A stretch of DNA of 64,000 nt. It comes from a virus. Lineage: Duplodnaviria > Heunggongvirae > Uroviricota > Caudoviricetes. A program made the position numbers and the translations under genes. The notes under the pieces were generated by a model. The model saw only the letters and a list, made by a program, of their open reading frames with translations. It was not told the DNA's origin and made no database searches. Below, piece by piece: positions 18,212 to 50,423 of the stretch. Position 1 is the stretch's first letter, and each line of letters begins with the position of its first letter. The stretch is taken from IMG/VR virus record IMGVR_UViG_2974624538_000001, positions 46,771 through 110,770 of that record. One strand, 5' to 3'.

Positions 18212-18282
18212 GTGGGTATAGTGAAGTGGTATAACGGGTGTTTTGGGAACATCTGACGTCGGTTCGATTCCGGCTACCCGCA
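18212..18282 (+). tRNA. tRNA-Pro(TGG), probable (imperfect D-stem)
   Basis: acceptor GTGGGTA/TACCCGC, anticodon arm GGTGT-TTTGGGA-ACATC, T-arm GTCGG-TTCGATT-CCGGC. Confidence 0.45.
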
Positions 18283-18450
18283 CGATGGGGAATGTAGAAG
18301 CTCTCCAGGAGTATCGAAGGACGTAACCTGAGGATACGAAAACGCTAGACGGCAGACGTGCTACGAACTAGTGTGTCGCTTCTACAAGCTTATTCAATGC
18401 GCATTGAAGAACCTCGGTATAGGCACACCGGGCGAAATAAGTGCCTGCCT

Positions 18451-18525
18451 CGGGATATAGCTCAGCTTGGTCAGAGCGCTGCATTTGGGATGCAGAAGTC
18501 GTCAGTTCGAATCTGACTATCCCGA
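18451..18525 (+). tRNA. tRNA-Pro(TGG)
   Basis: acceptor CGGGATA/TATCCCG, D-arm GCTC-AGCTTGGTCA-GAGC, anticodon arm CTGCA-TTTGGGA-TGCAG, T-arm GTCAG-TTCGAAT-CTGAC. Confidence 0.7.
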
Positions 18526-18557
18526 CTCTCAATAAATTGCCATGCGAGGAAAGAGAT

Positions 18558-19079
18558 ATGAATGACATAATGACGCGCGAGGACCTAATCCTTGCGATTG
18601 AGGCTAGAGACGGTTTAGACTGTTTCTTGTGTAAGAAGCCATTTTCTAAGGATATAAACAGTGAATGGCATGAGGTAACCATTGACCACTGGTACCCACA
18701 GTCTGTAGCATATGCAGAAGGATGGACCTATGAGCAGGTCAATGACCTTTCGAACCTTAGGAAGGCTCACAGACCTTGCAATACTCAAAAGAGTGATATT
18801 GTTCCCAATCCAGATGGAACGCTTCCTGAGCGTCCAAAGAAGGATAGAACAATCAGGGTTCCTCGTCCAGTGTCATGTGATACCTGCATGAATGGCAGAA
18901 TTCTTCTTCTCGGAGAATTCTGCCCGGATTGTAATTCTGGACCACAACCGGCTGCATTCCCTAAGACGCTTCAGAAGCGACCAAAGGAATGTGACCACAG
19001 TAAGTTTCACTGTTGGATGTGTGTTATCGGACACATACCACGTAAAAGTGCTATCCAAGCAATAATAATTGGAGATTAA
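18558..19079 (+). CDS. HNH endonuclease
   Basis: HEVTIDHWYPQS...NLRKAHRPCNTQK HNH motif and C-terminal Cys cluster; the longer 18441 ORF start overlaps a tRNA, so the ATG at 18558 (RBS GAGGAAAGAG) is used. Confidence 0.6.
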   Translation: MNDIMTREDLILAIEARDGLDCFLCKKPFSKDINSEWHEVTIDHWYPQSVAYAEGWTYEQVNDLSNLRKAHRPCNTQKSDIVPNPDGTLPERPKKDRTIRVPRPVSCDTCMNGRILLLGEFCPDCNSGPQPAAFPKTLQKRPKECDHSKFHCWMCVIGHIPRKSAIQAIIIGD

Positions 19080-19438
19080 TGTCTGAGTGGGATTGGCCAC
19101 TTGAGTCATTTAAGGATGAGCCTGACAAGATTGAGAAGCATTATGCTGAACGAGCTAAGTCAGGCTTTTCCACATTTGACTGGTGGAATTTTGATACGTA
19201 CATTGCTGGTGTTATTGGCCGGGCTGTGAGAGAATTCTCAGATGGTCACGGATACCATAGTGACTTCAGCAACATGGAAGATTTTGCGGAGTTCTGCAAG
19301 ACAATCTACGAACCCCTTGAGTTTTACGCTAGCAGGGAATACAGTAGACTTAAGTTTGACGAACAGGCAGTCAAGTATGAAGAGGCTGTCGAAGCAATGA
19401 AGAAGTTTTCCGAGCGTCTAGGCGCTTGGTGGGACTGA
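19079..19438 (+). CDS. hypothetical protein
   Basis: ORF, start overlaps upstream stop. Confidence 0.5.
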   Translation: MSEWDWPLESFKDEPDKIEKHYAERAKSGFSTFDWWNFDTYIAGVIGRAVREFSDGHGYHSDFSNMEDFAEFCKTIYEPLEFYASREYSRLKFDEQAVKYEEAVEAMKKFSERLGAWWD

Positions 19439-19439
19439 C

Positions 19440-19469
19440 TTGACAACCCCAGTCGTCAAGTGGTAAGGT
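19440..19469 (+). promoter_or_regulatory. sigma70-like promoter TTGACA-N18-TAAGGT with -35 inside inverted repeat TTGAC...GTCAA
   Basis: seen immediately upstream of the tRNA-like/Y RNA cluster. Confidence 0.35.
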
Positions 19470-19516
19470 AGTAACACGTCAGAAGCCTTCGGAAGACGTT
19501 AAAACATCCGGGCTCT

Positions 19517-19590
19517 TGCTCGCTAGCACAATTGGCAGTTGCACTCCGCTCTGGACGGAGAGGTTCCAGGTTCGAATCCTGGGCGGGCAG
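19517..19590 (+). tRNA. tRNA-like element, possibly tRNA-Gln(CTG) (non-canonical D-arm)
   Basis: acceptor TGCTCGC/GCGGGCA, anticodon arm CTCCG-CTCTGGA-CGGAG, T-arm CCAGG-TTCGAAT-CCTGG; flanked by an ATATCC motif. Confidence 0.4.
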
Positions 19591-19642
19591 CAATTGGGTT
19601 AAGGACATATCCATCGGTGAGAATCCGTAAAAACTGTCCCAT

Positions 19643-19713
19643 ATCTCAGAGCGTAGGTTGTGTCGGTCGGTCTCCAAAACCGACTCGTGAGAGTTCGAAT
19701 CTCTCCTGGGGTG
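19643..19713 (+). tRNA. tRNA-like element, possibly tRNA-Trp(CCA) (D-arm does not fold canonically)
   Basis: acceptor ATCTCAG/CTGGGGT (wobble-rich), anticodon arm TCGGT-CTCCAAA-ACCGA, T-arm GAGAG-TTCGAAT-CTCTC. Confidence 0.4.
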
Positions 19714-19845
19714 CTTGACTTCCAAGTCTTGGAGGTGCTACGATGGTATACAAGTTGAAGGCATTGTTCTTCAAGTTCCGCCCGGTGGTTGACAAGCTGC
19801 TGAGTAGATGGTACGTTAGAAGAACAAAGTAAGCAGCAAGCTTTC

Positions 19846-19962
19846 GGGTCGGCTGGATGAGGGTTATCTAACCTAAATTATACAACAGTCAATGGTAATT
19901 CCTGGTGGATTCCAGGGAGTGTGGTGACTATAACACTATCTCCCTCGCCTACAACATATCCG
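19846..19962 (+). ncRNA. Y RNA-like element 1
   Basis: 5' GGGTCGGCTGGATG...GGTTATCT...3' ACATATCCG shared framework; AAGCTT ends 2 nt upstream; internal hairpin TTCCTGG/CCAGGGA. Confidence 0.55.
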
Positions 19963-19989
19963 AAATGTTTTACAGCGCTTAGGCGCTAT

Positions 19990-20064
19990 TGGGGTGTAGC
20001 TCGGTCTGGTTAGAGCATTCCGCTGATAACGGAACGGTCGTGGGTTCAAATCCCACCGCCCCAA
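19990..20064 (+). tRNA. tRNA-Ile(GAT)
   Basis: acceptor TGGGGTG/CGCCCCA, D GCTC-GGTCTGGTTA-GAGC, anticodon arm TTCCG-CTGATAA-CGGAA, T GTGGG-TTCAAAT-CCCAC. Confidence 0.75.
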
Positions 20065-20070
20065 CTTTAT

Positions 20071-20202
20071 GGGTCGGATTCAATAGTTTAACTTAAATCC
20101 AAACCGCGTGTCCTAGGTTCGAATCCTAGTCCCGGCTTTCAAGTCGGGGTAGCTCAGTGGCAGAGCAGTGGTCATTAAAAACACTATTGAAACAACATAT
20201 CC
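20071..20202 (+). ncRNA. Y RNA-like element 2 with tRNA-like module (YrlA-like)
   Basis: 5' GGGTCGGAT...3' ACATATCC; internal T-arm CCTAGG-TTCGAAT-CCTAG and an acceptor/D-arm-like GGGGTAGCTCAGTGGCAGAGC segment. Confidence 0.55.
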
Positions 20203-20222
20203 ATGAAAAACTTAAAATTTGC

Positions 20223-20358
20223 GGGTCGGATGAATTCAGTTATCTTCCTACCATAAATCAGAAAGTCAAGGTTCGACTCCTTGAAGGGGTGAATGAGAGA
20301 GGTCTCAGCTAGCCTGAACAGTTAGTGAATCCCACTTCTGAATTCAATATTATATCCG
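20223..20358 (+). ncRNA. Y RNA-like element 3 with tRNA-like T-arm
   Basis: GGGTCGGATGAATTCAGTTATCT...CTGAATTCAATATTATATCCG terminal stem (GAATTCAG/CTGAATTC 8 bp); internal CAAGG-TTCGACT-CCTTG. Confidence 0.6.
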
Positions 20359-20368: not shown

Positions 20369-20462
20369 GGGTCGGATGGAAATCTTTATCATAAGTTCAA
20401 CTCTTATCATCCCCCCTCATGGGGATGGGGCGTGGTGCCCACTGGTTTACTGCAACATACCC
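20369..20462 (+). ncRNA. Y RNA-like element 4
   Basis: GGGTCGGATGG...TTTATC...ACATACCC; AAGCTT ends 1 nt upstream. Confidence 0.5.
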
Positions 20463-20468
20463 AATTAT

Positions 20469-20552
20469 GGAGGCGCTAACATCGGCGGCGTGGAACGGTC
20501 TTGAAAACCGTACGTTCGAAAGGACGTGTGAGTTCGAATCTCACCGCCTCCG
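20469..20552 (+). tRNA. tRNA-Ser(TGA)
   Basis: acceptor GGAGGCG/CGCCTCC, anticodon arm ACGGT-CTTGAAA-ACCGT, long variable arm, T GTGAG-TTCGAAT-CTCAC. Confidence 0.7.
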
Positions 20553-20573
20553 CTTTACCCTAAGGAGTAAAGT

Positions 20574-20851: not shown

Positions 20852-20928
20852 GCGCCGTGGGGCTGCTAGGTTGTGGCCACTGCCCTGTCAAGGCAGACAT
20901 CAGGCGGGTTCGATTCCCGTACGGCGCG
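20852..20928 (+). tRNA. tRNA-Asp(GTC)
   Basis: acceptor GCGCCGT/ACGGCGC, anticodon arm CTGCC-CTGTCAA-GGCAG, T CGGG-TTCGATT-CCCG. Confidence 0.7.
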
Positions 20929-20956
20929 CTTTCGTAAATGAACAAAAGGAGTTCTG

Positions 20957-21251: not shown

Positions 21252-21408
21252 AGCCCCTAATGATTTCGGGTCGGATGTTTCTTGGTTATCTTACTGTGAA
21301 TGAGGAGTTCTGGGTTCGAATCCCAGCGGGTCCACTCTTGGGCCTGTAGTTTAACTGGCAAAACGTAAACCCGAGGAACGCTTATATATCCGTCATATCA
21401 TTAGGGGC
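21252..21408 (+). ncRNA. Y RNA-like element 6 with tRNA-like T-arm and extended terminal stem
   Basis: core GGGTCGGATG...GGTTATCT...ATATATCCG (21268-21392) enclosed by a perfect 13-bp inverted repeat AGCCCCTAATGAT/ATCATTAGGGGCT; internal CTGGG-TTCGAAT-CCCAG. Confidence 0.6.
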
Positions 21409-21415
21409 TAAGCTT

Positions 21416-22059: not shown

Positions 22060-23676
22060 ATGTCTAATGCACTTGGTAAGTTTGCTGCTTCTCAGAAGCA
22101 GGACCGTGTTTCTACTCCTCAGACAAAGCGTACCCCTGGTCGCACGGATGAGGTAAAGAACAACGCGGGCGGGTTTGTGTTCAAGGTAGACGACAAGTCT
22201 CGCCTTGAGCGATTCCTGGTTCTTGGTACTGACAAGGGTACCTACTACGTTGGTGAGCAGAAGTTGACGGCTCAGAACATTTCCTTCCTGAAGGAGATGG
22301 TCCGTAAGGATGAGCGTCTGGTCGTGGACACTGCTGTTGACGTCTCTGTAAATGGTCGTGCGCTTAAGAATTCTCCTGCGCTCTTCGCTATGGCTACGGT
22401 TATGACGGAGGGTCAGGATAAGGCTTACGCTCGTGAGGCCGTTCAGAAGGTTGCTCGTACTTCTACCCACCTGTTCGAGTACGCACAGTACATCGATGAC
22501 CTTGGTGGTTGGGGTCGTGCAAAGCGTCGTTCTGTCGCTGAGTGGTACGAGAACAAGTCTCTGGATATGCTTGCATACCAGGCTGTCAAGTACCGTCAGA
22601 GGAATGGTTGGACGCACCGTGACCTGTTCCGTCTGTCTCATCCTCAGGGTGTGGACCAGGGCGTTGGCAACTTCATCCTTGGCAAGGACGTAGAGTCTGA
22701 GGTGGAAATTCTTAAGGGCTTCGCTGAGATGCAGTCTGCGACTTCGGTCAAGGATGTTATCAGGACGCTGGAGACTTTTAGGAACCTTCCTTGGGAGACC
22801 ATTCCTACTCAGTTCCTCAAGGACGTGAAGGTGTGGAAGACTCTCTTCTACAATGGTCAGCTTCGTGGCCAGGCTCTCATTCGTAACATCACTCGACTCG
22901 CTCGAATTGGTGCGTTTGATGACATGGTTTTCGCAACTGACTACGCGAATGCAATTGCTAACCAGGAAATGATTCAGAAGACTCGTCTTCACCCAATCAA
23001 CTTCCTGAATGCGGTTGTTGTTCACGAGTACGGTCAGATTGACCGTAACGGTTACAGCATGTGGAGTGCCGGACGTAAGAAGGATTGGAAGTCTAATGGA
23101 AAGATTGTGGATGCTCTCAATGAGGGATTCCACATGGCATTCAAGACTGTCGAGCCTTCTGGCAAGAGGACTCTCGTTGCAACTGACGTTTCTGGCTCCA
23201 TGAGTCAGAGCGCCATCGGACTTGACCTTTCTTGCGCTCAGGTTTCTGCGGCTGTTGCCATGACGGTTGCTCGCACTGAGCCTTACAGTGACATTGTTGG
23301 CTTCTCTAGCAGCATTGTTGACTTGGGCATTACCGCTAAGAGTTCTTTTGCCGACGCAATGCGTAAGGTGAGTAACAGGAACTTCGGTGGTACGGATGCG
23401 GCTGCTGCAATTAAGTACGCTGACCAGAAGGGAATTCAGGTTGACACCTTCGTTGTTATCACTGATAACGAGACGTGGGGCGGAAGCCAGAAGCCTTTCC
23501 AGGCACTTAAGCAGTACCGTCAGAAGACCGGAATTGATGCGCGTCTTGCGGTTCTCGGTGTGGCGTCTACGGACTTCACCATCGCTGACCCTACGGACCG
23601 TGGAATGATGGACTTCGTTGGTTTCGATGCAAATGCGCCTAAGGCCCTCGCGGACTTCAGCGCTGGTCGTATCTGA
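22060..23676 (+). CDS. rsr: Ro60-like ribonucleoprotein (TROVE domain plus C-terminal vWA/MIDAS), Rsr orthologue
   Basis: 538 aa; TROVE-like N-terminal region; vWA with MIDAS DVSGSM...TDNETWGG; adjacent to the Y RNA-like array. Confidence 0.8.
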   Translation: MSNALGKFAASQKQDRVSTPQTKRTPGRTDEVKNNAGGFVFKVDDKSRLERFLVLGTDKGTYYVGEQKLTAQNISFLKEMVRKDERLVVDTAVDVSVNGRALKNSPALFAMATVMTEGQDKAYAREAVQKVARTSTHLFEYAQYIDDLGGWGRAKRRSVAEWYENKSLDMLAYQAVKYRQRNGWTHRDLFRLSHPQGVDQGVGNFILGKDVESEVEILKGFAEMQSATSVKDVIRTLETFRNLPWETIPTQFLKDVKVWKTLFYNGQLRGQALIRNITRLARIGAFDDMVFATDYANAIANQEMIQKTRLHPINFLNAVVVHEYGQIDRNGYSMWSAGRKKDWKSNGKIVDALNEGFHMAFKTVEPSGKRTLVATDVSGSMSQSAIGLDLSCAQVSAAVAMTVARTEPYSDIVGFSSSIVDLGITAKSSFADAMRKVSNRNFGGTDAAAAIKYADQKGIQVDTFVVITDNETWGGSQKPFQALKQYRQKTGIDARLAVLGVASTDFTIADPTDRGMMDFVGFDANAPKALADFSAGRI

Positions 23677-24946: not shown

Positions 24947-25019
24947 AGTCCCGTAGCTCAGGGGATAGAGCGTCACACTGCGGATGTGAAGGTCGGAGGT
25001 TCGAATCCTCTCGGGACTG
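24947..25019 (+). tRNA. tRNA-Arg(GCG)
   Basis: acceptor AGTCCCG/CGGGACT, D GCTC-AGGGGATA-GAGC, anticodon arm TCACA-CTGCGGA-TGTGA, T GGAGG-TTCGAAT-CCTCT. Confidence 0.6.
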
Positions 25020-25161
25020 CGTTAGCGAGTGTTAGCCTAGCTTATTTTTGGCGGGTAGCATAAGCCATTAATAGGCAAGACACAATGTGAAAAGGATAGA
25101 CCATGCTACAGTCTCCTGAGTAACTAGTAGGAAATAGGTCTCCAAGGTGCGCTAACACCAT

Positions 25162-25235
25162 GCCCCAGTAATGGCCCGGTCTTCTAAACCAGAGGTGCAT
25201 AACGGATGATGCTGGTTCGAATCCAGTCTGGGGTG
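25162..25235 (+). tRNA. tRNA-like element, anticodon/D region non-canonical (identity undetermined)
   Basis: acceptor GCCCCAG/CTGGGGT and T-arm GCTGG-TTCGAAT-CCAGT are clear; the middle does not fold as a standard D/anticodon arm. Confidence 0.35.
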
Positions 25236-25381: not shown

Positions 25382-26008
25382 ATGTATTGGACTAAGAATA
25401 ATATGAGTGGTAGGATACTCCTAAGAAGAAAATTTAGGAGGACTGAGTTGCCTAAGAGAAAGTTTTTTTATGATACCGAATTCCATGAGGATGGTAAGAC
25501 GATTGACTTGATTTCAATTGGCATTGTTCGTGGAGACGGTAAGGAATACTATGCGGTATCATCTGATGCAGATTATCGCAGGGTGTTCGAGAATACATGG
25601 CTAATGAACCATGTAATGAATACTATCGACCATGTAGTGGTTGAAGACATTAATCATGGTGGATATACAATCATTCCAACAGGGCCTTTCGTAAAGACAC
25701 GTGAACAAATTCGAGATGAAATTATCGAATTTGTTATGGAAAGTCAGGACGAATTCCATGACCCTCATGGAGAAGCAAAGGCTGAACTGTGGGCCTGGTA
25801 TGCTGATTATGACCATGTAGCGCTCTGTCAGCTCTTTGGTAAAATGATTGATTTGCCTACCGGATTCCCGATGTTTACAAGAGATTTGAGACAGCATTGG
25901 GAATACAAGGGATATCCAGAGCTGCCAAGGCAGTCTGATGGAGAGCACAACGCGCTTGACGATGCACGCCACAATCTGGTAATGTATAAGTACATGGAAG
26001 GTCTGTGA
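25382..26008 (+). CDS. DEDDh 3'-5' exo(ribo)nuclease (RNase T/oligoribonuclease-like)
   Basis: ExoI FYDTEFHEDG, ExoII WAWYADYDHVAL, ExoIII HNALDDARHNLVMY. Confidence 0.65.
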   Translation: MYWTKNNMSGRILLRRKFRRTELPKRKFFYDTEFHEDGKTIDLISIGIVRGDGKEYYAVSSDADYRRVFENTWLMNHVMNTIDHVVVEDINHGGYTIIPTGPFVKTREQIRDEIIEFVMESQDEFHDPHGEAKAELWAWYADYDHVALCQLFGKMIDLPTGFPMFTRDLRQHWEYKGYPELPRQSDGEHNALDDARHNLVMYKYMEGL

Positions 26009-26388: not shown

Positions 26389-26400
26389 GAAGAGTCAATG

Positions 26401-26474
26401 GGGGCTTAGCTCATCGTAGGTAGAGCACTTGCCTTGCAAGCAAGAGGTGGCCGGTTCGAGCCCGGCAGTCTCCA
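26401..26474 (+). tRNA. tRNA-Ala(TGC)
   Basis: acceptor GGGGCTT with G3:U70, anticodon arm CTTGC-CTTGCAA-GCAAG, T GCCGG-TTCGAGC-CCGGC. Confidence 0.7.
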
Positions 26475-26509
26475 CTGGTCATATTTGACCTACAAGGAGG
26501 TGGACAGCT

Positions 26510-26780: not shown

Positions 26781-26853
26781 GCTCCGGTAGCTCAGTTGGC
26801 AGAGCAGGCGGCTCTTAACCGTCGTGTCGGGAGTTCAAGTCTCCCTCGGAGTA
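26781..26853 (+). tRNA. tRNA-Lys(CTT)
   Basis: acceptor GCTCCGG/TCGGAGT, D GCTC-AGTTGGCA-GAGC, anticodon arm GGCGG-CTCTTAA-CCGTC, T GGGAG-TTCAAGT-CTCCC. Confidence 0.65.
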
Positions 26854-26865
26854 CGTAAAATTAAA

Positions 26866-27748: not shown

Positions 27749-27776
27749 TAAGAACAAGGCGTCGAGAGACGCTGTG

Positions 27777-27850
27777 GCGGTATAGCTCAGTTGGTCAGAG
27801 CGTTCCCCTCATAAGGGAAAGGCCACTGGTTCGAGTCCAGTTGCCGCTAC
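27777..27850 (+). tRNA. tRNA-Met(CAT), elongator type
   Basis: acceptor GGCGGTA/TGCCGCT, anticodon arm TTCCC-CTCATAA-GGGAA, T ACTGG-TTCGAGT-CCAGT. Confidence 0.65.
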
Positions 27851-27851
27851 T

Positions 27852-27925
27852 GCGCGGTAGTGAAGTTCGGTTATCACGCGGGGCTCATAATCCCGTATCG
27901 TGGGTTCAAATCCCACCTGCGCCAC
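27852..27925 (+). tRNA. tRNA-fMet(CAT), initiator type
   Basis: unpaired 1:72 (T1 x C72), three consecutive G:C pairs in anticodon stem (GGGG-CTCATAA-TCCC), D GTGA/TCAC. Confidence 0.6.
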
Positions 27926-27926
27926 G

Positions 27927-27998
27927 GTCCTTTAGCTTAGTTGGTAAAGCGGTCGGTTGAAGCCCGATAGTCTACGGTTCGATTCCGTGAGGGACCAC
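27927..27998 (+). tRNA. tRNA-Phe(GAA)
   Basis: acceptor GGTCCTT/AGGGACC, anticodon arm GTCGG-TTGAAGC-CCGAT, T ACGG-TTCGATT-CCGT. Confidence 0.7.
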
Positions 27999-28649: not shown

Positions 28650-28735
28650 GGATGGATAACACGTAATTGGTAGCGTCGCGGCCTGTAAAGCCGTTGTCCG
28701 AAAGGGCTCTGGGGGTTCAAGTCCCTCTCCATCCA
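28650..28735 (+). tRNA. tRNA-Tyr(GTA)
   Basis: acceptor GGATGGA/TCCATCC, anticodon arm CGGC-CTGTAAA-GCCG, long variable arm, T GGGGG-TTCAAGT-CCCTC. Confidence 0.65.
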
Positions 28736-28737
28736 CT

Positions 28738-28810
28738 GTGACTGTAGCATAACGGCTAATGCACTGCGTTGTGGTCGCAGCCAATGCGGGTTCGAGTCCC
28801 GTCAGTCACC
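28738..28810 (+). tRNA. tRNA-His(GTG)
   Basis: acceptor GTGACTG/CAGTCAC with C73, anticodon arm CTGCG-TTGTGGT-CGCAG. Confidence 0.7.
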
Positions 28811-28812
28811 CC

Positions 28813-29250: not shown

Positions 29251-29325
29251 TCCCTCGTAGCTCAATGGCAGAGCAGAGAGCTGTTAACTCTAAGGTTGTT
29301 GGTTCGAGTCCAGCCGGGGGAGCCA
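29251..29325 (+). tRNA. tRNA-Asn(GTT), CCA encoded
   Basis: acceptor TCCCTCG/CGGGGGA, D GCTC-AATGGCA-GAGC, anticodon arm GAGAG-CTGTTAA-CTCTA, 3' GCCA. Confidence 0.75.
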
Positions 29326-29576: not shown

Positions 29577-29647
29577 GCCTCTATGGTGTAAGGGATGCAC
29601 AATGGTCTTCGGAACCATTAGTCCGGGTTCGAATCCTGGTGGGGGTA
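29577..29647 (+). tRNA. tRNA-Arg(TCG)
   Basis: acceptor GCCTCTA/TGGGGGT (wobble pairs), anticodon arm ATGGT-CTTCGGA-ACCAT, T CCGGG-TTCGAAT-CCTGG. Confidence 0.6.
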
Positions 29648-29648
29648 C

Positions 29649-30055: not shown

Positions 30056-30127
30056 TGTTCCTGAAGTTCAACGGATGAACAACTCCCTCCTAAGGAGTAG
30101 GCTGCTGGTTCGAATCCAGTCAGGAAC
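30056..30127 (+). tRNA. tRNA-Arg(CCT)
   Basis: acceptor GTTCCTG/CAGGAAC, D GTTC-AACGGAT-GAAC, anticodon arm ACTCC-CTCCTAA-GGAGT, T GCTGG-TTCGAAT-CCAGT. Confidence 0.7.
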
Positions 30128-30223
30128 ACTTTACAAGACACGGGGGCTTGGCCCGTCCCCCAATCATGAGTCTTGGGCTCTCGTCCATAGAGAGTTTATA
30201 GTTAACGGGCCTGCCAAGCTATG

Positions 30224-30393: not shown

Positions 30394-30661
30394 AGGGCCT
30401 GCTTGGTTTCGACTTTGCTGGACGGGATATAGACGCAACCCTTCTTGGTCAAAGAAGTAAAACGGGCCAAAACAATAGATGCAAATTCTAACTTTGCTCT
30501 CGCTGCGTAAGTAGCCGGATTTGTCGGGAACCTTGGAACAGAATCCCGACTAGACAAAATGTGTAGATAATGTGTAAGACCCTTCAGTGTGATTGACAAT
30601 GGTTGTAGAACGGATATATGCTAGATAGTGAAGGACAGGGGTTCGACTCCCCTCAGGTCCA
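30394..30661 (+). ncRNA. ssrA: tmRNA (SsrA), tag peptide (A)ANSNFALAA
   Basis: 5' GGGCCTGCTTGGTTTCGAC and 3' GGTTCGACTCCCCTCAGGTCCA form a tRNA-Ala-like acceptor with G3:U70; internal frame GCA AAT TCT AAC TTT GCT CTC GCT GCG TAA (30481-30510) encodes ANSNFALAA-stop. Confidence 0.75.
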
Positions 30662-30678
30662 CACAGAAAGATACGGTA

Positions 30679-35169: not shown

Positions 35170-35205
35170 CTGCTACCCTATGTAGAACCGTGTAGGGGCT
35201 ATGCA

Positions 35206-38168: not shown

Positions 38169-38198
38169 ACTTTATCGTTAATTACAAAGGGGAATGTA

Positions 38199-38985: not shown

Positions 38986-39057
38986 GCCGGGTTAGCTCAG
39001 TGGGAGAGCGTCTGCCTTACAAGCAGAGGGCCGGGGGTTCGAATCCCTCACCCGGTA
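38986..39057 (+). tRNA. tRNA-Val(TAC)
   Basis: acceptor GCCGGGT/ACCCGGT, D GCTC-AGTGGGA-GAGC, anticodon arm TCTGC-CTTACAA-GCAGA. Confidence 0.7.
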
Positions 39058-39181
39058 CACTATTCTCTTGAAGTGCCAGCATTAGCAGAGAGAAGGCCAT
39101 TGGCGTCTGGCAGCGCTCGAATGGTACCCTGTGGGTAGTAACCACTTGGGAGGGGTTGAGCCTAGGGCTATCTCCCAACAT

Positions 39182-39266
39182 GGCCGCATGGCGGAATTTG
39201 GCATACGCGATAGTCTCAAAAACTATTGTCCGAAAGGAATTGAGGGTTCAAGTCCCTCTGCGGCTA
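39182..39266 (+). tRNA. tRNA-Leu(CAA)
   Basis: acceptor GGCCGCA/TGCGGCT, anticodon arm ATAGT-CTCAAAA-ACTAT, long variable arm, T GAGGG-TTCAAGT-CCCTC. Confidence 0.7.
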
Positions 39267-39290
39267 CTTCCCGAAACAAAAAGGAGAACA

Positions 39291-44363: not shown

Positions 44364-45143
44364 ATGTCCAAGATTATGGTCCTCGGTGATGTTCATGGAG
44401 AGACAAAGTGGCTGGTCAATATGATTAACAAGGCGAGTCGAATGGGCGTGAAGAAGATTCTCCAGGTTGGAGATTTCGGAATCTGGACCCATGAGGCTGA
44501 GGGTCACCGGTTTCTCGACCGTGCCAATGAGGAGCTTCGTAAGAATGGCATTAAGCTCTATTTCGTTGGCGGTAATCACGAGAACTGGGACCACCTGAAT
44601 TGGCACGAGAAGAATGGTGCCAAGGATTGGAATGGTCACACCTTTATTCGGTCTCACATTCTTTACACGGGCCGGGTGAATCGGTGGACTTGGGGCGAGA
44701 AGGGTTCTGAGAAGGTTTTTCAGGCCGTTGGTGGGGCTTATTCAATTGACCGTCGTCGGCGGGTTGTTGGAAAGACTCTCTGGCTTGATGAGGAGATTCC
44801 GGACCGTGTTGTTTATGGTCTGGAGAAGGCAAACAGGAAGTGTGACTATCTATTCACGCATGATGGCCCTACCTGCCTTCCTTACGCTAATCTGAAGCCT
44901 GATGTTGATTCTCAGATTCATCGTCAGAAGATGGACCGGATTGGCCAGGCTACTCGACCCAATCTGTGGTTCCACGGTCATTACCACAAGTGGATGGAGT
45001 ATACCTTTAACCACACTCAGCACACAGACTACGCCTTTGTGTATGGTCTTGACCGGGATTACCAGTTCTACAGTTACGTCATTCTCGACACTGAGACTGA
45101 CGATATTGAGACTGCTACTGGTAAGATTATCCAGCACGGATGA
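44364..45143 (+). CDS. calcineurin-like metallophosphatase (Ser/Thr phosphatase family)
   Basis: GDVHG, GDFG and GNHE motifs. Confidence 0.7.
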   Translation: MSKIMVLGDVHGETKWLVNMINKASRMGVKKILQVGDFGIWTHEAEGHRFLDRANEELRKNGIKLYFVGGNHENWDHLNWHEKNGAKDWNGHTFIRSHILYTGRVNRWTWGEKGSEKVFQAVGGAYSIDRRRRVVGKTLWLDEEIPDRVVYGLEKANRKCDYLFTHDGPTCLPYANLKPDVDSQIHRQKMDRIGQATRPNLWFHGHYHKWMEYTFNHTQHTDYAFVYGLDRDYQFYSYVILDTETDDIETATGKIIQHG

Positions 45144-46045: not shown

Positions 46046-46118
46046 GATTCGTTAGCTCAGTTGGTAGAGCGGGGAACTTTTAATTCCACGGTCCTCGGTT
46101 CGAGTCCGAGACGAATCA
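46046..46118 (+). tRNA. tRNA-Lys(TTT)
   Basis: acceptor GATTCGT/ACGAATC, D GCTC-AGTTGGTA-GAGC, anticodon loop CTTTTAA, T CTCGG-TTCGAGT-CCGAG. Confidence 0.75.
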
Positions 46119-46122
46119 CTAT

Positions 46123-47404: not shown

Positions 47405-47476
47405 CCCTGGTTAGCTAATTGGTAAAGCAAGCGGTTTATAGCCGAACGAATGTGGGTTCGAATCCCACACCAGGGA
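47405..47476 (+). tRNA. tRNA with anticodon loop TTTATAG, nominally Ile(TAT); weak anticodon stem
   Basis: acceptor CCCTGGT/ACCAGGG, D GCTA-ATTGGTAA-AGC, T GTGGG-TTCGAAT-CCCAC; only a 3-bp anticodon stem. Confidence 0.45.
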
Positions 47477-47518
47477 CAATGATTGGACATTTAAGCATGT
47501 CACAGTTATACTTTAATC

Positions 47519-48674: not shown

Positions 48675-48750
48675 GCTCCGGTGGTCTAGTCTGGTCTAGG
48701 ATACTTGACTCTCAATCAAGAGGACACGGGTTCGAATCCCGTTCGGAGTA
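48675..48750 (+). tRNA. tRNA-Glu(CTC)
   Basis: acceptor GCTCCGG/TCGGAGT, anticodon arm CTTGA-CTCTCAA-TCAAG, T ACGGG-TTCGAAT-CCCGT. Confidence 0.6.
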
Positions 48751-48898
48751 CAAATCGGTTCTGGTTGTATAGGGTAAAACGGTTGCAACCAATCCAGAAC
48801 TGGTCTAGGCTCAGTAGGTAACATTACGAACCCTCAATAGCCGACTCTAGACTTACAGCATGAGGGTGAATATCCAAAATGCTGTAAGATAGAGACAC

Positions 48899-48973
48899 GC
48901 CCCATTAGTCTAGCGGCCTAGGATTCCGGATTTTCACTCCGCGAGAACGTCGGTTCGAATCCGACATGGGGTA
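48899..48973 (+). tRNA. tRNA-Glu(TTC)
   Basis: acceptor GCCCCAT/ATGGGGT, anticodon arm CCGGA-TTTTCAC-TCCGC, T GTCGG-TTCGAAT-CCGAC. Confidence 0.65.
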
Positions 48974-48974
48974 C

Positions 48975-49180: not shown

Positions 49181-49254
49181 TCCGGCGTAGTGAAATGGTA
49201 TCACGCAACTTTGCCAAAGTTGTAGCGCGAGTTCGATTCTCGTCGCCGGGACCA
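49181..49254 (+). tRNA. tRNA-Gly(GCC), CCA encoded
   Basis: acceptor TCCGGCG/CGCCGGG, D GTGA-AATGGTA-TCAC, anticodon arm CAACT-TTGCCAA-AGTTG, 3' ACCA. Confidence 0.75.
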
Positions 49255-49255
49255 C

Positions 49256-49300
49256 AAGCAGTCACACCGGGTAAAGCCGCACTGACTGCTTCTTTTTTAT
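49256..49300 (+). terminator. rho-independent terminator
   Basis: AAGCAGTCA...TGACTGCTT followed by TCTTTTTTAT. Confidence 0.6.
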
Positions 49301-49325
49301 CCATTTAACATAGTTAGGATTAAGA

Positions 49326-49847
49326 ATGATTCAGATGGGTGTTCGAGTTCGCGTCAAGGACAATTACGCTGGTGGACTTGACAACGTGGTGGGTCGCACT
49401 GGTAAGGTTCTTCGTGGAACTGCTGATGGTCTCTACCTTCTTGACATCAAGGGGAAGCGTAAGGCTTCTTGGGGTGACTACACGTATGAGCGTGAGGTTA
49501 TCGTTGAAGAGCACGAGGTTGAGGCTGTTGATTTTGAAATCAAGGATTCTCAGGGGCGCAAGATTGAGCTTGGTGATAAGATTGCTTACGGTCCTCTTGG
49601 TGGTGGTGTGACGATTGGTACGGTCGTAGATATTGACGAGCGTGGAGACGGCTGGAATCGTGCGGTGAAGTTCCGTCTTGAAACCAAGAGTCGTGAGTTT
49701 TTCTCTGATGGCGGAGACAGGACCATCGATGGGGCCAACGTGACCACTTATCGATGGTATGCACATCCCGGTCGGTGTGTTATTCTTGAGAAGAATCCCA
49801 TTAACCGGGACGTTTTTGAACTTCGCTCTGTTCCTGTCGCCTTCTGA
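49326..49847 (+). CDS. hypothetical protein with KOW-like N-terminus
   Basis: VRVRVKDNYAGGLDNVVGRTGKV. Confidence 0.45.
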   Translation: MIQMGVRVRVKDNYAGGLDNVVGRTGKVLRGTADGLYLLDIKGKRKASWGDYTYEREVIVEEHEVEAVDFEIKDSQGRKIELGDKIAYGPLGGGVTIGTVVDIDERGDGWNRAVKFRLETKSREFFSDGGDRTIDGANVTTYRWYAHPGRCVILEKNPINRDVFELRSVPVAF

Positions 49848-49848
49848 G

Positions 49849-49879
49849 GTTGACGAGACAGCGCAACATGTGTTAGTAT
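49849..49879 (+). promoter_or_regulatory. sigma70-like promoter TTGACG-N19-TAGTAT driving Y RNA-like element 7
   Basis: -10 hexamer ends about 6 nt before the Y RNA 5' end. Confidence 0.5.
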
Positions 49880-49884
49880 AGATA

Positions 49885-49970
49885 CATCGGGTCGGAGGAA
49901 AGACGGTTATCTTTCATTTGGCGAAAATCGCGGGAATGCCCGCTTTCCGTCTTCCACACCATATCCGATG
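49885..49970 (+). ncRNA. Y RNA-like element 7
   Basis: CATCGGGTCGGAGG...GGTTATCT...CCATATCCGATG terminal stem, inner stem GGAAAGACGG/CCGTCTTCC, hairpin GCGGGaatgCCCGC. Confidence 0.6.
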
Positions 49971-49974
49971 TAAT

Positions 49975-50047
49975 GCGGGTGTAACTCAATTGGCAGAGTG
50001 CTAGCCTTCCAAGCTAGATGTTGCCGGTTCGACCCCGGTCACCCGCT
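49975..50047 (+). tRNA. tRNA-Gly(TCC)
   Basis: acceptor GCGGGTG/CACCCGC with U73, D ACTC-AATTGGCA-GAGT, anticodon arm CTAGC-CTTCCAA-GCTAG. Confidence 0.75.
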
Positions 50048-50059
50048 CGGAACGAATAC

Positions 50060-50090
50060 CCCGCTAGTAAAAACTGGCGGGGTTTCGTTA
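50060..50090 (+). terminator. rho-independent terminator
   Basis: CCCCGCtagtaaaaactgGCGGGGTTTCGTTATTT. Confidence 0.55.
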
Positions 50091-50111
50091 TTTCTATGGT
50101 AAGATGGAGTC

Positions 50112-50309
50112 ATGGAAGAAATCGTATCCTACAGCTTTGCTGTAGACATTTACAAGAACGACTCTGGAACATTCACTTATGGTGTTTTCCAAGAGTTGGA
50201 GTCAGACGAAGAGGATGAGCTACAGTTGCTTGAGACTGGCGAGGCTGATACACTAGCCGAAGCAGCAGAGATTGCAGGACGTAGTATCAAGACTCTTTTC
50301 GCAGTCTGA
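50112..50309 (+). CDS. hypothetical acidic protein
   Basis: ORF. Confidence 0.4.
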   Translation: MEEIVSYSFAVDIYKNDSGTFTYGVFQELESDEEDELQLLETGEADTLAEAAEIAGRSIKTLFAV

Positions 50310-50351
50310 AATTTTCCGGCAAATTTTGTCGGGGGTTCGTAAAGGACCCAA

Positions 50352-50423
50352 TCCCCCTTAGTGTAATTGGCAGCACAACGGATTTTGGTTCCGTTAGTTC
50401 GAGTTCGAGTCTCGCCGGGGGAG
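50352..50423 (+). tRNA. tRNA-Gln(TTG)
   Basis: acceptor TCCCCCT/CGGGGGA (one mismatch), D GTGT-AATTGGCA-GCAC, anticodon arm ACGGA-TTTTGGT-TCCGT. Confidence 0.6.

What the first reader, a model, noticed from the sequence alone, without database searches (positions are those of the whole stretch)
18212..50423. About 30 tRNA genes in 12 clusters, including an initiator, plus unusual anticodons and non-canonical tRNA-like elements
Hand-folding gives Pro x2, Ile(GAT), Ser(TGA), Ser(GCT), Asp, Arg(GCG), Arg(TCG), Arg(CCT), Ala, Lys(CTT), Lys(TTT), Met, fMet, Phe, Tyr, His, Cys, Asn, Val, Leu(TAG), Leu(CAA), Glu(CTC), Glu(TTC), Gly(GCC), Gly(TCC) and Gln(TTG). Oddities include a class-I tRNA with anticodon GAG (34194) and a tRNA with loop TTTATAG (47405; Ile-TAT or a suppressor). 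Elements at 19517, 19643 and 25162 have good acceptor and T-arms but aberrant D or anticodon regions. No Thr tRNA was seen. The set amounts to a near-complete decoding kit spread between accessory genes.
Basis: seen in the sequence. Interest (0 to 1): 0.55.

Follow-up and report, generated by a model that had tools for sequence, protein, structure and literature searches.

The report
Phage tRNA island with rearranged tRNA-Arg
The window is the already-annotated tRNA/tmRNA island of Streptomyces phage Gilson, which is ordinary for this phage group.

Summary
The window is 100% identical to Streptomyces phage Gilson (MK061412.1), whose GenBank record already annotates these same genes. Large tRNA sets in these low-GC phages of high-GC Streptomyces are published, so the core finding is already known.

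Corrections:
- 19517 is tRNA-Gln(CTG). 19643 is tRNA-Trp(CCA) with a truly weak D arm.
- Thr tRNAs are absent from the window, but three lie elsewhere in the genome. The phage has 35 tRNAs covering all 20 amino acids.

New points:
1. 25162-25235 is not a decayed tRNA. It belongs to a family of 89 distinct sequences. 87 carry Arg anticodons and keep an A20-like base. They sit inside phage tRNA arrays, ARAGORN misses them, and they are nearly absent from prokaryote genomes. The D-stem strands appear to be swapped around the anticodon arm.
2. Six unannotated, covarying RNAs (19846-21392) carry the Ro60-binding motif upstream of a Ro60 gene, so they are Y RNAs.
3. The Leu(GAG) tRNA is a conserved class-I tRNA-Leu.

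The parts
18212..18283 (+). tRNA-Pro(TGG)
   Evidence: ARAGORN; Rfam 53.7 bits; annotated in GenBank
18451..18526 (+). tRNA-Pro(TGG)
   Evidence: (69.4 bits)
19517..19591 (+). tRNA-Gln(CTG); U1:A72 and G73
   Evidence: (50.7 bits)
19643..19714 (+). tRNA-Trp(CCA) with a degenerate D arm; orthologs in other phages have a normal D arm
   Evidence: (29.1 bits)
19846..19962 (+). Y RNA-like element A (GGGUCGGCUG ... ACAUAUCCG)
19990..20065 (+). tRNA-Ile(GAT)
20071..20203 (+). Y RNA-like element B, with a YrlA-type tRNA-like module (T arm, acceptor-like hairpin, D arm)
   Evidence: Rfam YrlA 30.8 bits; covariation in A1
20223..20358 (+). Y RNA-like element C, with a T-arm-like hairpin
   Evidence: A2: 38 predicted pairs, 17 with compensatory changes
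20369..20463 (+). Y RNA-like element D
20469..20553 (+). tRNA-Ser(TGA), class II
20852..20929 (+). tRNA-Asp(GTC)
   Evidence: 38.6 bits
21179..21239 (+). Y RNA-like element E (minimal: stem plus loop)
   Evidence: A8
21252..21410 (+). Y RNA-like element F (core 21268-21392), with a YrlA-type tRNA-like module and a 14-bp outer stem
   Evidence: Rfam YrlA 27.4 bits; A7: 43 predicted pairs, 12 with compensatory changes
22060..23676 (+). Ro60 ortholog (TROVE and Ro60 vWA domains)
   Evidence: Pfam; annotation
24947..25020 (+). tRNA-Arg(GCG)
25162..25235 (+). Rearranged (D-arm-permuted) tRNA-Arg(UCU); unannotated
   Evidence: 85.2 bits on family model R1
25448..26008 (+). Rv2179c-like 3'-5' exoribonuclease (annotated as DnaQ-like)
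   Evidence: Pfam
26400..26475 (+). tRNA-Ala(TGC)
26781..26854 (+). tRNA-Lys(CTT)
27776..27850 (+). tRNA-Met(CAT), elongator type
27851..27925 (+). tRNA-Met(CAT), initiator-like (U1xC72 mismatch; GGG/CCC in the anticodon stem)
27926..27998 (+). tRNA-Phe(GAA)
28650..28736 (+). tRNA-Tyr(GTA), class II
   Evidence: (33.2 bits)
28738..28812 (+). tRNA-His(GTG), with G-1 and C73
28813..28885 (+). tRNA-Cys(GCA)
29251..29325 (+). tRNA-Asn(GTT); CCA encoded
29577..29648 (+). tRNA-Arg(TCG)
30057..30129 (+). tRNA-Arg(CCT)
30395..30662 (+). tmRNA, tag peptide ANSNFALAA
   Evidence: ARAGORN; Rfam 82.5 bits; annotated
34194..34269 (+). Class-I tRNA-Leu(GAG): 5-nt variable loop, Leu-type D arm, A73
35080..35170 (+). 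tRNA-Ser(GCT), class II
35707..36774 (+). T4 Rnl1-type RNA ligase
   Evidence: Pfam RNA_lig_T4_1
37187..37606 (+). Polynucleotide kinase (AAA_33 domain)
   Evidence: annotation
38089..38170 (+). tRNA-Leu(TAG), class II
38986..39058 (+). tRNA-Val(TAC)
39182..39267 (+). tRNA-Leu(CAA), class II
44364..45143 (+). Metallophosphoesterase
46046..46119 (+). tRNA-Lys(TTT)
47405..47477 (+). tRNA-Ile(TAT)
   Evidence: compensatory changes against Stigma
48675..48751 (+). tRNA-Glu(CTC)
48899..48974 (+). tRNA-Glu(TTC)
49181..49254 (+). tRNA-Gly(GCC); CCA encoded
49975..50048 (+). tRNA-Gly(TCC)
50352..50424 (+). tRNA-Gln(TTG)

Best explanation
The region is the RNA-metabolism island of the lytic Streptomyces siphovirus Gilson (Stanwilliamsviridae, Gilsonvirus).

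What it holds:
- 31 canonical tRNA genes.
- One structurally rearranged tRNA-Arg(UCU).
- A tmRNA.
- Six Y RNAs with their Ro60 partner.
- tRNA-repair and processing enzymes: a T4 Rnl1-type ligase, a polynucleotide kinase, a phosphoesterase and a 3'-5' exoribonuclease.

How it most likely works:
- The phage genome is 47% G+C with a GC3 of 0.47. It infects hosts of about 72% G+C that rarely use A/U-ending codons.
- The phage therefore brings its own near-complete decoding set. Its mRNAs can then be translated fast without depending on rare host tRNAs. This step is inferred here and has been published for the sister cluster BE.
- The set may also keep translation going if the host cuts or depletes its own tRNAs. 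That would explain the repair enzymes in the same island.
- Most of the tRNA genes lack an encoded CCA, so host CCA-adding enzyme and RNase P/Z must mature them.

The element at 25162:
- It supplies the missing AGA decoder.
- It keeps the acceptor stem, T arm, anticodon arm (UCU) and a D-loop-like GC(A/G)U-AAYGGA block.
- The D-stem 3' strand and the anticodon arm lie in front of the D-stem 5' strand and D loop.
- All three re-joined chain ends would be neighbours in a normal L-shaped tRNA. The 3D fold, and ArgRS recognition through A20 and C35, could therefore be kept. This step is inferred.

The six Y RNAs present the Ro60-binding motif in a terminal stem. They probably load or regulate the phage Ro60 for RNA quality control or decay.
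For: Identity and annotation:
- 100% identity to phage Gilson, with the same tRNA and tmRNA calls.
- All 20 amino acids are covered once the four tRNAs outside the window are counted.

Codon usage:
- Genome GC is 0.474 and GC3 is 0.474.
- 85% of codons are read by the phage tRNAs under strict wobble.
- TTA, for which there is no phage tRNA, is used at 0.6 per 1000 codons.
[quoted passage not shown] The same paper names BK as the sister cluster (PMC10690885).

Enzymes (Pfam): TROVE plus vWA_Ro60, RNA_lig_T4_1, AAA_33 kinase, Metallophos and Rv2179c-like exoribonuclease.

Rearranged tRNA-Arg:
- It is conserved from Streptomyces, Rhodococcus and Pseudomonas phages to a 735-kb megaphage.
- There are 89 distinct members. 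87 have Arg anticodons, all with GGA. The 2 non-Arg members both have GGU.
- Acceptor stem is 99% paired, anticodon stem 88% and T stem 97%. Every acceptor and anticodon-stem pair shows compensatory changes, as do 2 of the 5 T-stem pairs. Pair 11:47 is U:A 23 / C:G 8 with none broken.
- Members sit in tRNA arrays, often only 2-13 nt from a neighbouring tRNA. ARAGORN of 33.
- Sister genera carry a canonical Arg(TCT) in the same slot.
- Gilson uses AGA for 18% of Arg codons.

Y RNAs:
-.
- The 5' motif matches the published GNCGAAN0-1G.
- The elements are absent, together with Ro, from phage Muntaha.
Against: - No expression, processing or charging data are available.
- Host codon usage was not computed here. 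It rests on general knowledge of Streptomyces and on the published cluster BE analysis.
- For 25162, a local hairpin (CAU/AUG, columns 46-48 with 60-62) is as compatible with the sequences as the long-range D-stem, at 98% paired. The exact fold is therefore unsettled.
- The 11:47 covariation may reflect only a few independent events.
- The search pattern fixed GC(A/G)UAAYGG and the T loop. The family as sampled is biased towards those features.
- A few contigs carry both a canonical Arg(TCT) and the rearranged UCU copy (L044, L052, L068).
- The Y RNA hits are far below the Rfam YrlA gathering score (30.8 and 27.4 against 69).
Confidence: 0.8

Rival explanations
1. The tRNA set is mainly a counter-defence device, not a codon-usage device. 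It replaces host tRNAs that anticodon nucleases or infection-induced shut-off destroy, and the ligase, kinase and phosphoesterase repair cut tRNAs as T4 Pnkp/Rnl1 do.
For: A T4 Rnl1-type ligase, a polynucleotide kinase and metallophosphoesterases lie inside the tRNA island. A second RNA ligase lies further right in the genome. The set is almost complete: it includes tRNAs for G/C-ending codons that the host decodes well, such as Arg(GCG), Gly(GCC), Leu(GAG) and Glu(CTC). Pure codon compensation would not need those.
Against: The phage's GC3 of 0.47 and the published tAI result for cluster BE already explain a large set. No host nuclease or phage anticodon-loop escape mutation was identified here. 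The two roles do not exclude each other.
Confidence: 0.35
2. 25162 is a non-functional remnant (pseudogene) of the tRNA-Arg(TCT) found at the same place in sister genera.
For: It is syntenic with canonical Arg(TCT) genes. ARAGORN rejects it and it falls just below Rfam's tRNA gathering score. The single-sequence fold is no better than shuffled controls, z = -0.59.
Against: The same 74-83-nt architecture occurs in 89 distinct sequences from unrelated phages, with 53 different acceptor stems. Nearly all stem pairs show compensatory changes. Anticodons are only Arg, apart from 2 members that have also lost the A20-like base. Placement inside tRNA arrays is exact. A private pseudogene cannot produce this pattern.
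Confidence: 0.05
3. The 25162 family is a tRNA mimic that is not used for decoding. It could be a decoy for an Arg-tRNA-specific nuclease or modification enzyme, or a regulatory or primer RNA.
For: The core is non-canonical. Some contigs also hold a canonical Arg(TCT). Phages do encode other tRNA mimics: the Y RNAs and the tmRNA in this same island.
Against: A decoy would not need a perfect 7-bp acceptor stem plus discriminator base, tRNA-like spacing in arrays, anticodons spread over five Arg codon families that complement the contig's other Arg tRNAs, and a change of the A20-like base exactly in the two members whose anticodon left Arg.
Confidence: 0.15
4. The repeated GGGUCGGAUG...ACAUAUCC elements are not Y RNAs. 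They would be decayed tRNA genes, transcription or processing signals, or mobile repeats.
For: Two of them contain tRNA-like arms. One ortholog is annotated 'tRNA-His(gtg)' in Blueeyedbeauty. Rfam YrlA scores are below the gathering score. Annadreamy keeps the elements although it has lost Ro.
Against: The terminal stem and inner helices covary across orthologs. The 5' motif equals the published Ro60-binding motif. The tRNA-like modules have the YrlA order T arm, acceptor hairpin, D arm. The same module sits upstream of Ro in Samisti12 and, in three copies, in mycobacteriophage Cali. Cali's YrlA hit scores no higher, at 36.1 bits. Muntaha lacks both Ro and the elements. Annadreamy's Ro loss looks recent: it is the same species as Ro-containing Limpid.
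Confidence: 0.12

Closest known systems
tRNA/tmRNA islands of cluster BE and BK Streptomyces phages (Stanwilliamsviridae) and of Bxz1-like mycobacteriophages
   Same: Large lytic actinophages with roughly 35-48 tRNAs, one tmRNA, a Ro60 gene and RNA ligase/kinase genes. Their G+C is low relative to the host. Codon usage matched to the phage tRNA set is published (PMC5764925, PMC10690885). The window is itself a deposited member, Gilson.
   Different: Nothing for the 31 canonical tRNAs and the tmRNA. The published annotations do not include the rearranged tRNA-Arg or the Y RNAs.
YrlA/YrlB bacterial and mycobacteriophage Y RNAs (Chen et al. 2014, PMC4201824; Rfam RF02553)
   Same: Encoded next to a Ro60 ortholog. 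The 5' strand carries a GNCGAAN0-1G-type motif in a stem formed by the two RNA ends. There is a tRNA-like module in the order T arm, acceptor-like hairpin, D arm (elements B and F), or a T arm only (C), like YrlB.
   Different: There are six tandem paralogs with different inner modules. The published bacteria have at least two Y RNAs each. The scores are far below the Rfam threshold. The conserved 3' motif (A)CAUAUCC and a UUAUCU block are specific to these phages. They are unannotated in these genomes.
D-arm-lacking mitochondrial tRNAs (for example nematode and mammalian mt tRNA-Ser)
   Same: A functional tRNA without a D arm between the acceptor and anticodon stems, with a short connector in its place.
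   Different: The phage family keeps a full T arm and a D-loop-like AAYGGA block with the G18-G19-A20 equivalents, moved 3' of the anticodon arm. It is normal tRNA length (74-83 nt). It occurs in viruses of bacteria with canonical translation systems.
Circularly permuted and split tRNA genes (Cyanidioschyzon, Nanoarchaeum); allo-tRNAs with 8/4 or 9/3 acceptor branches (PMC5389517)
   Same: Natural departures from the standard gene order or cloverleaf, found by searching beyond the standard tRNA finders. Some occur in phages.
   Different: Permuted and split genes are processed into a normal mature tRNA. Here no processing route is apparent, and the mature RNA itself would have the swapped order. 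Allo-tRNAs change stem lengths, not the order of segments.
T4 Pnkp/Rnl1 tRNA repair pathway
   Same: An Rnl1-family ligase and a polynucleotide kinase are encoded together in a phage that also carries tRNA genes.
   Different: The kinase here is a short AAA_33 protein of 139 aa with no recognised phosphatase domain. No matching host anticodon nuclease is known.

Membership tests
Bacterial-type tRNA genes (the 31 ARAGORN calls) | Cloverleaf with a 7-bp acceptor stem and D, anticodon and T arms, recognised by tRNA models | tested here: met
   ARAGORN of 31. Rfam tRNA at or above gathering score for 29, plus Asp at 38.6 bits locally. Ser(TGA) matches only the tRNA-Sec model, at 37.3 bits.
Bacterial-type tRNA genes (the 31 ARAGORN calls) | Conserved in relatives, with stems kept by compensatory change | tested here: met
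   The same set is in the same order in Stigma. Compensatory changes were shown for Ile(TAT), Leu(GAG) and the Met tRNAs.
Bacterial-type tRNA genes (the 31 ARAGORN calls) | Expressed, CCA-tailed and aminoacylated | not testable with these tools
   Only 2 of 31 encode CCA. Needs tRNA-seq or Northern blots.
tmRNA | tRNA-Ala-like domain plus an internal tag reading frame ending ALAA, above the Rfam gathering score | tested here: met
   Rfam RF00023 at 82.5 bits against 47. ARAGORN tag ANSNFALAA*.
Bacterial initiator tRNA (27851-27925) | Mismatch at pair 1:72 | tested here: met
   U1 x C72. The ortholog in Muntaha has C1 x U72 and an E. coli fMet-like D arm.
Bacterial initiator tRNA (27851-27925) | Three consecutive G:C pairs at the bottom of the anticodon stem; A11:U24 | tested here: inconclusive
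   Three G:C pairs are present but are followed by G.U next to the loop. Pair 11:24 is U:A, the elongator type.
Class II tRNA-Leu (34194-34269) | Long variable arm | tested here: not met
   The variable loop is 5 nt. The same is true in Kenrey, and in Immanuel3 with a TAG anticodon.
Class II tRNA-Leu (34194-34269) | A73 discriminator and a Leu-type D arm (3-bp stem, AAUUGGUAG-type loop) | tested here: met
   A73, with D arm GCCC-AAUUUGGUAG-AGGC. The comparison with E. coli tRNA-Leu is from memory.
Y RNA / YrlA | Encoded next to a Ro60 (TROVE) gene | tested here: met
   The elements lie 0.7-2.2 kb upstream of a TROVE plus vWA_Ro60 protein. The same holds in 9 related phages, in Samisti12 and in Cali.
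Y RNA / YrlA | 5'-strand Ro60-binding motif GNCGAAN0-1G within a stem formed by the RNA's two ends | tested here: met
   GUCGGAUG in Gilson, which differs at one position. GUCGAAUG and GUCGAAAG in orthologs are exact matches. The terminal stem covaries.
Y RNA / YrlA | tRNA-like module: T arm, acceptor-like hairpin, D arm | tested here: met
   Present in elements B and F. C has a T arm only. A, D and E have none.
Y RNA / YrlA | Score at or above the Rfam RF02553 gathering score | tested here: not met
   30.8 and 27.4 bits against 69. The Cali mycobacteriophage locus also reaches only 36.1 bits.
Y RNA / YrlA | Bound by Ro60 | not testable with these tools
   Needs immunoprecipitation of the phage Ro60.
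tRNA-Arg (element 25162-25235) | 7-bp acceptor stem plus discriminator, 5-bp T stem with a UUCGAAU loop, 5-bp anticodon stem with a 7-nt loop, U33 and an Arg anticodon | tested here: met
   A6 and (99%, 97% and 88% paired). Anticodons are UCU, UCG, ACG, CCU or CCG in 87 of 89 members.
tRNA-Arg (element 25162-25235) | D arm between the acceptor stem and the anticodon arm | tested here: not met
   Only 7 nt (UA plus 4 nt plus C) separate the two stems. ARAGORN makes no call. Rfam tRNA gives 28.0 bits against 29.
tRNA-Arg (element 25162-25235) | ArgRS identity elements A20 and C35 (established for E. coli) | tested here: inconclusive
   C35 is present. An A follows GG in the displaced D-loop-like block in all 87 Arg members, and is U in the 2 non-Arg members. 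That this base is equivalent to A20 is inferred.
tRNA-Arg (element 25162-25235) | Arginylation and use on the ribosome | not testable with these tools
   Needs charging assays or tRNA-seq.

The most novel reading that the evidence does not exclude
Element 25162-25235 represents a phage-restricted class of functional arginine tRNAs whose core is internally permuted. The D-stem 3' strand and anticodon arm lie ahead of the D-stem 5' strand and D loop. Standard tRNA finders miss these tRNAs, and many large phages use them in place of, or beside, a canonical tRNA-Arg. They would be decoded by normal bacterial ribosomes and charged by the host ArgRS. On top of this, the phage runs a six-member Y RNA set for its own Ro60.
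Probability: 0.5. Interest if true: 0.85.

Novelty: new variant of a known kind. Interest (0 to 1): 0.6.

Why it matters
The tRNA island itself adds nothing new. It is annotated, and its likely role is published for the sister cluster.

The rearranged tRNA-Arg would matter for three reasons:
- It would show that a bacterial translation system accepts a tRNA whose segments are in a different order. That bears on what the ribosome, EF-Tu, ArgRS and RNase P really need.
- Phage tRNA counts made with standard tools would be systematically short by one Arg decoder, often the AGA one.
- It gives a natural scaffold for engineered tRNAs.

The Y RNA array gives a compact phage system, one Ro60 with six RNAs, for asking what Y RNA diversity is for. 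The class-I tRNA-Leu is a natural test of LeuRS independence from the long variable arm.

Tried and rejected
- 25162 as a Y RNA because it lies just downstream of Ro60: rejected. It lacks the GGGUC...AUCC motifs and belongs to a different family.
- 25162 as a private pseudogene of Arg(TCT): rejected.
- A D-arm hairpin GCAU...AUGC between the anticodon and T arms: kept only as an alternative. It is compatible but shows no covariation, and it takes one or two pairs from a covarying T stem.
- Leu(GAG) as a recent anticodon mutant of tRNA-His, suggested by BLAST hits to BE 'tRNA-His' genes: rejected. It has A73, no G-1 and a Leu-type D arm, and a sister with a TAG anticodon exists in Immanuel3.
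- The TAT tRNA as a suppressor: rejected.
- Single-sequence folding of 25162 was uninformative.
- Rfam at E-value threshold gave no family other than tRNA for 25162.
- Literature searches found no description of the rearranged tRNA. The library is incomplete, so prior description cannot be excluded.
- My early note calling Gilson 'cluster BE' was wrong. It groups with Moab, which is named as cluster BK.

Full report
**1. What the window is**

Window bases 18000-40000 are 100% identical to Streptomyces phage Gilson (MK061412.1 / NC_048742.1, 128,338 bp; Stanwilliamsviridae, Loccivirinae, Gilsonvirus; host S. griseofuscus). Window coordinate equals record coordinate minus 46,770. More than 120 related Streptomyces phage records share the region. 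Gilson groups with phage Moab, which the literature names as cluster BK, the sister of cluster BE.

**2. Checking the observation**

- ARAGORN finds 31 tRNAs and one tmRNA, all on the + strand, from 18212 to 50424.
- Rfam at gathering score confirms 29 tRNAs and the tmRNA.
- Asp reaches 38.6 bits in a local search. Ser(TGA) matches only the tRNA-Sec model, at 37.3 bits.
- The GenBank record annotates exactly these 31 tRNAs and the tmRNA.
- 19517 is tRNA-Gln(CTG), with the U1:A72 and G73 typical of Gln (50.7 bits).
- 19643 is tRNA-Trp(CCA), but its D arm is degenerate (29.1 bits). Orthologs in Stigma, Blueeyedbeauty and TunaTartare have a normal D arm.
- The lack of Thr applies only to the window. 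Thr(GGT), Thr(CGT), Thr(TGT) and a second Ile(GAT) lie at record 4694-5196 on the minus strand. The phage therefore has 35 canonical tRNAs for all 20 amino acids.

**3. The flagged oddities**

*Ile(TAT), 47405.* Gilson's anticodon stem has a G.A mismatch. Stigma's ortholog has a regular 5-bp stem, the same UUUAUAG loop, and compensatory changes in the anticodon and T stems. It is a real tRNA-Ile(UAU), not a suppressor.

*The two CAT tRNAs.*
- 27851 has a U1xC72 mismatch, three consecutive G:C pairs in the anticodon stem and a UUCAAAU T loop.
- The tRNA in the same slot in Muntaha closely resembles E. coli tRNA-fMet as I recall it.
- It is therefore initiator-like, although pair 11:24 is of the elongator type.
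- 27776 is an elongator Met.

*Leu(GAG), 34194.*
- It is truly class I, with a 5-nt variable loop.
- Its D arm (3-bp stem, AAUUUGGUAG loop) and A73 are of the tRNA-Leu type.
- It is present in eight records from seven Gilsonvirus phages.
- A tRNA with the same body but anticodon TAG occurs in the unrelated 46-kb phage Immanuel3. That tRNA has compensatory changes in the acceptor and anticodon stems.
- It looks like a tRNA-Leu lineage that has lost the long variable arm. From general knowledge, E. coli LeuRS does not need that arm, so charging with Leu is plausible but untested.

**4. Why the phage has the set**

- The genome is 47.4% G+C with a GC3 of 0.474.
- With strict wobble, the phage tRNAs read 85% of the phage's codons.
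- The rest are mostly C/U-ending codons of four-codon boxes served by a U34 tRNA, plus AGA and TTA.
- TTA has no phage tRNA and, from general knowledge, depends on the developmentally regulated bldA tRNA in Streptomyces. The phage almost avoids it (0.6 per 1000 codons, 1% of Leu).
[quoted passage not shown] The phages are at about 49% G+C and the hosts at about 71-72% (PMC10690885).
- Genome announcements report 39-48 tRNAs and a tmRNA for these phages.
- The island also holds a T4 Rnl1-type RNA ligase, a polynucleotide kinase, a metallophosphoesterase and an Rv2179c-like 3'-5' exoribonuclease, which is annotated as DnaQ-like.
- A second role, keeping translation alive when tRNAs are cut, is therefore plausible.
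- Only 2 of the 31 tRNAs encode CCA, so host maturation enzymes are needed.

**5. The element at 25162-25235**

*Anatomy.* The Rfam tRNA model aligns it at 28.0 bits. It has a 7-bp acceptor stem, a T arm and an anticodon hairpin with loop CUUCUAA (UCU). There is no D arm, and about 13 extra bases lie before the T arm.

*Synteny.*
- Blueeyedbeauty, Faust, TunaTartare, Muntaha and Annadreamy carry a canonical tRNA-Arg(TCT) in the same slot.
- A decayed copy was therefore the obvious reading.
- That reading fails. The full 74 nt is 96-100% conserved across Gilsonvirus, and Stigma changes pair 6:67 from A:U to U.G.

*Spread beyond Gilsonvirus.*

| Phage group | Identity to the Gilson element |
|---|---|
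| Cluster BE phages (Mildred21 annotates it 'tRNA-OTHER') | 86-89% |
| Rhodococcus phage NiceHouse | 83% |
| 735-kb uncultured megaphage | 78% |
| Pseudomonas phages PAK_P2 and phiPsa397 (core only) | 81.5% |

*Family size.* Pattern scans of IMG/VR and of metagenomes brought the family to 89 distinct sequences of 74-83 nt, with 53 different acceptor stems.

*Covariation in a 31-sequence alignment (A6).*

| Stem | Cells paired | Pairs with compensatory changes |
|---|---|---|
| Acceptor | 99% | 7 of 7 |
| Anticodon | 88% | 5 of 5 |
| T | 97% | 2 of 5 |

No shuffle reaches the observed covariation score, and sliding the partner columns collapses pairing to 30-48%.

*Anticodons.*
- UCU 63, UCG 13, ACG 5, CCU 5, CCG 1. 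That is 87 of 89, all Arg.
- All 87 have an A after the invariant GG of the block GC(A/G)U-AAYGG.
- The two members with other anticodons (UAU and UUU) both have U there.
- From general knowledge, A20 and C35 are the main ArgRS identity elements in E. coli, so this pattern is what a charged tRNA-Arg would show.

*Genomic setting.*
- The elements lie inside tRNA arrays, in many contigs only 2-13 nt from a neighbouring tRNA.
- ARAGORN calls none of 33.
- In most contigs the anticodon complements the canonical Arg tRNAs present.
- In 185,579 prokaryote species genomes the pattern finds only three members, all on MAG contigs of 85 kb or less. The family therefore looks restricted to phages.
- A covariance model of the family gives 85.2 bits for Gilson and 82.3 for Stigma. 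The best canonical tRNA scores 37.3.
- Gilson uses AGA for 18% of its Arg codons and has no other UCU tRNA.

**6. Fold of the rearranged tRNA**

*Conserved features.*
- Invariant or nearly invariant: U8-A9, G12, the block G-C-(A/G)-U-A-A-Y-G-G-A, and A-U just before the T stem.
- The block reads like a canonical G10-C11-N12-U13-A14-A15-Y-G18-G19-A20.

*Model (i).*
- The four bases after U8-A9 pair with GC(A/G)U.
- Pair 11:47 is U:A in 23 sequences and C:G in 8, never broken. Pair 12:46 is always G:C. A third pair forms on one side or the other, depending on subtype.
- The first strand then acts as the D-stem 3' strand and runs straight into the anticodon stem, as in a normal tRNA.
- The D-stem 5' strand and D loop follow the anticodon arm and run into the T stem.
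- The three new junctions (9 to 22, 43 to 10, and 20/21 to 48/49) join residues that are neighbours in the standard L shape. The 3D core could therefore be kept. This is inference from textbook tRNA structure.

*Model (ii).*
- A local hairpin C(A/G)U...AUG forms just before a 4-bp T stem.
- It is 98% compatible with the sequences but shows no compensatory change.

I favour (i), but the data do not settle it. The search pattern fixed the D-loop-like block and the T loop, so variation there is under-sampled.

**7. The unannotated RNAs upstream of Ro60**

- Six elements lie at 19846-19962, 20071-20203, 20223-20358, 20369-20463, 21179-21239 and 21268-21392. They fill the gaps that the GenBank record leaves empty.
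- Each starts GGGUCGG(A/C)U(G/U) and ends (A)CAUAUCC(G/A).
- The exact 10-mer occurs four times within 1.1 kb.
- The base before GGGU covaries with the base after AUCC (c...G or u...A), and the flanks extend the stem.
- An inner helix is fully compensatory between orthologs. For element B: UCAAUAG/CUAUUGA in Gilson, GUUAUCG/CGAUAGC in Blueeyedbeauty, GAAUAUUG/CGAUAUUC in Faust, UGUAAUUG/CGAUUACA in TunaTartare.
- RNAalifold on eight orthologs predicts 38 pairs with 17 compensatory for C, 43 with 12 for F, and 22 with 9 for B.
- B and F contain a T arm, an acceptor-like hairpin and a D arm in the YrlA order. They hit Rfam YrlA at 30.8 and 27.4 bits, below the gathering score of 69.
- The Ro locus of mycobacteriophage Cali, a member of the phage group in which YrlA RNAs were reported, scores only 36.1 bits.
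- The 5' motif GUCGGAUG is a one-base variant of the published Ro60-binding motif GNCGAAN0-1G. Orthologs carry exact matches.
- The neighbouring protein has TROVE and Ro60 vWA domains.
- Muntaha lacks both Ro and the elements. Its Ile, Ser and Asp tRNAs abut.
- Samisti12 (cluster BE) has one such element upstream of Ro, and Cali has three.
- These are Y RNAs: new members of a known kind. Six tandem paralogs is an unusually large set.
- Blueeyedbeauty's record annotates its F element as 'tRNA-His(gtg)', which is probably a mis-annotation.

**8. Verdict**

- The finding as stated, about 30 tRNAs forming a near-complete decoding kit, is real but already known and annotated. On its own it deserves a low score.
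- I found no description of it in Rfam 15, in two papers on non-canonical tRNAs, or in full-text searches. The library is incomplete, and function is untested.
- The overall interest score reflects that mixture.

Noticed in passing
L006:386-541 (Streptomyces phage Faust, between tRNA-Gln and gene 95): Sub-threshold match to the Rfam manA RNA motif (46.3 bits against a gathering score of 55.2, E = 4.8e-9). It lies where other phages have tRNA-Trp, and Faust has no annotated Trp tRNA there. Gilson has no such hit.
   Followed up: no
L005:2109-2181 (Blueeyedbeauty): The record annotates a 'tRNA-His(gtg)' here that is the ortholog of Y RNA element F. ARAGORN does not call it. Probably a mis-annotation.
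   Followed up: partly
L004:12371-12452, 17098-17188 and 33669-33741 (Stigma): ARAGORN finds an extra, unannotated tRNA-Ser(CGA). The record labels Ser(gct) as 'tRNA-Ala(gct)' and Gln(ttg) as 'tRNA-Leu(ttg)'.
   Followed up: no
window 29265-29396: Annotated CDS 130 (43 aa) overlaps tRNA-Asn (29251-29325) on the same strand, so it is probably a spurious ORF call. Likewise, NiceHouse gene 178 (L020:16-156) lies over its rearranged tRNA-Arg.
   Followed up: no
window 25448-26008: The gene annotated 'DnaQ-like DNA polymerase III subunit' matches the Rv2179c-like 3'-5' exoribonuclease family (Pfam, 46.8 bits). This fits an RNA-processing role better than a replication role.
   Followed up: partly
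L102 and L142 (metagenome contigs): Two members of the rearranged-tRNA family have non-Arg anticodons (UAU, UUU). Both have U instead of A after the GG of the D-loop-like block, which suggests a switch of amino-acid identity within the family.
   Followed up: partly
L016:56-131 (Immanuel3) and window 34194-34269: Class-I (short variable loop) tRNAs with Leu anticodons TAG and GAG and Leu-type D arms occur in unrelated Streptomyces phages. A related 76-nt 'tRNA-His(gtg)' with A73 exists in Jay2Jay (L017:55-130).
   Followed up: partly
L013 (Annadreamy): This phage has lost the block from the genes just upstream of Ro60 through tRNA-Arg(ACG), but it keeps most of the Y RNA-like elements. Its close relative Limpid keeps the two genes upstream of Ro; Limpid's Ro gene itself was not fetched. 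Looks like a recent deletion.
   Followed up: no
L003:16472-16535 (Gilson record about 117242-117305, outside the window): Weak tRNA-like hit (18.6 bits on model R1) in an unannotated gap of the right arm of the genome.
   Followed up: no
window 58001-60000: G+C rises to 0.54 against about 0.47 elsewhere in the window.
   Followed up: no
window 21252-21265 and 21397-21410: A 14-bp inverted repeat (UAGCCCCUAAUGAU / AUCAUUAGGGGCUA) encloses Y RNA element F. It covaries in orthologs, giving F a much longer terminal stem than its paralogs.
   Followed up: partly
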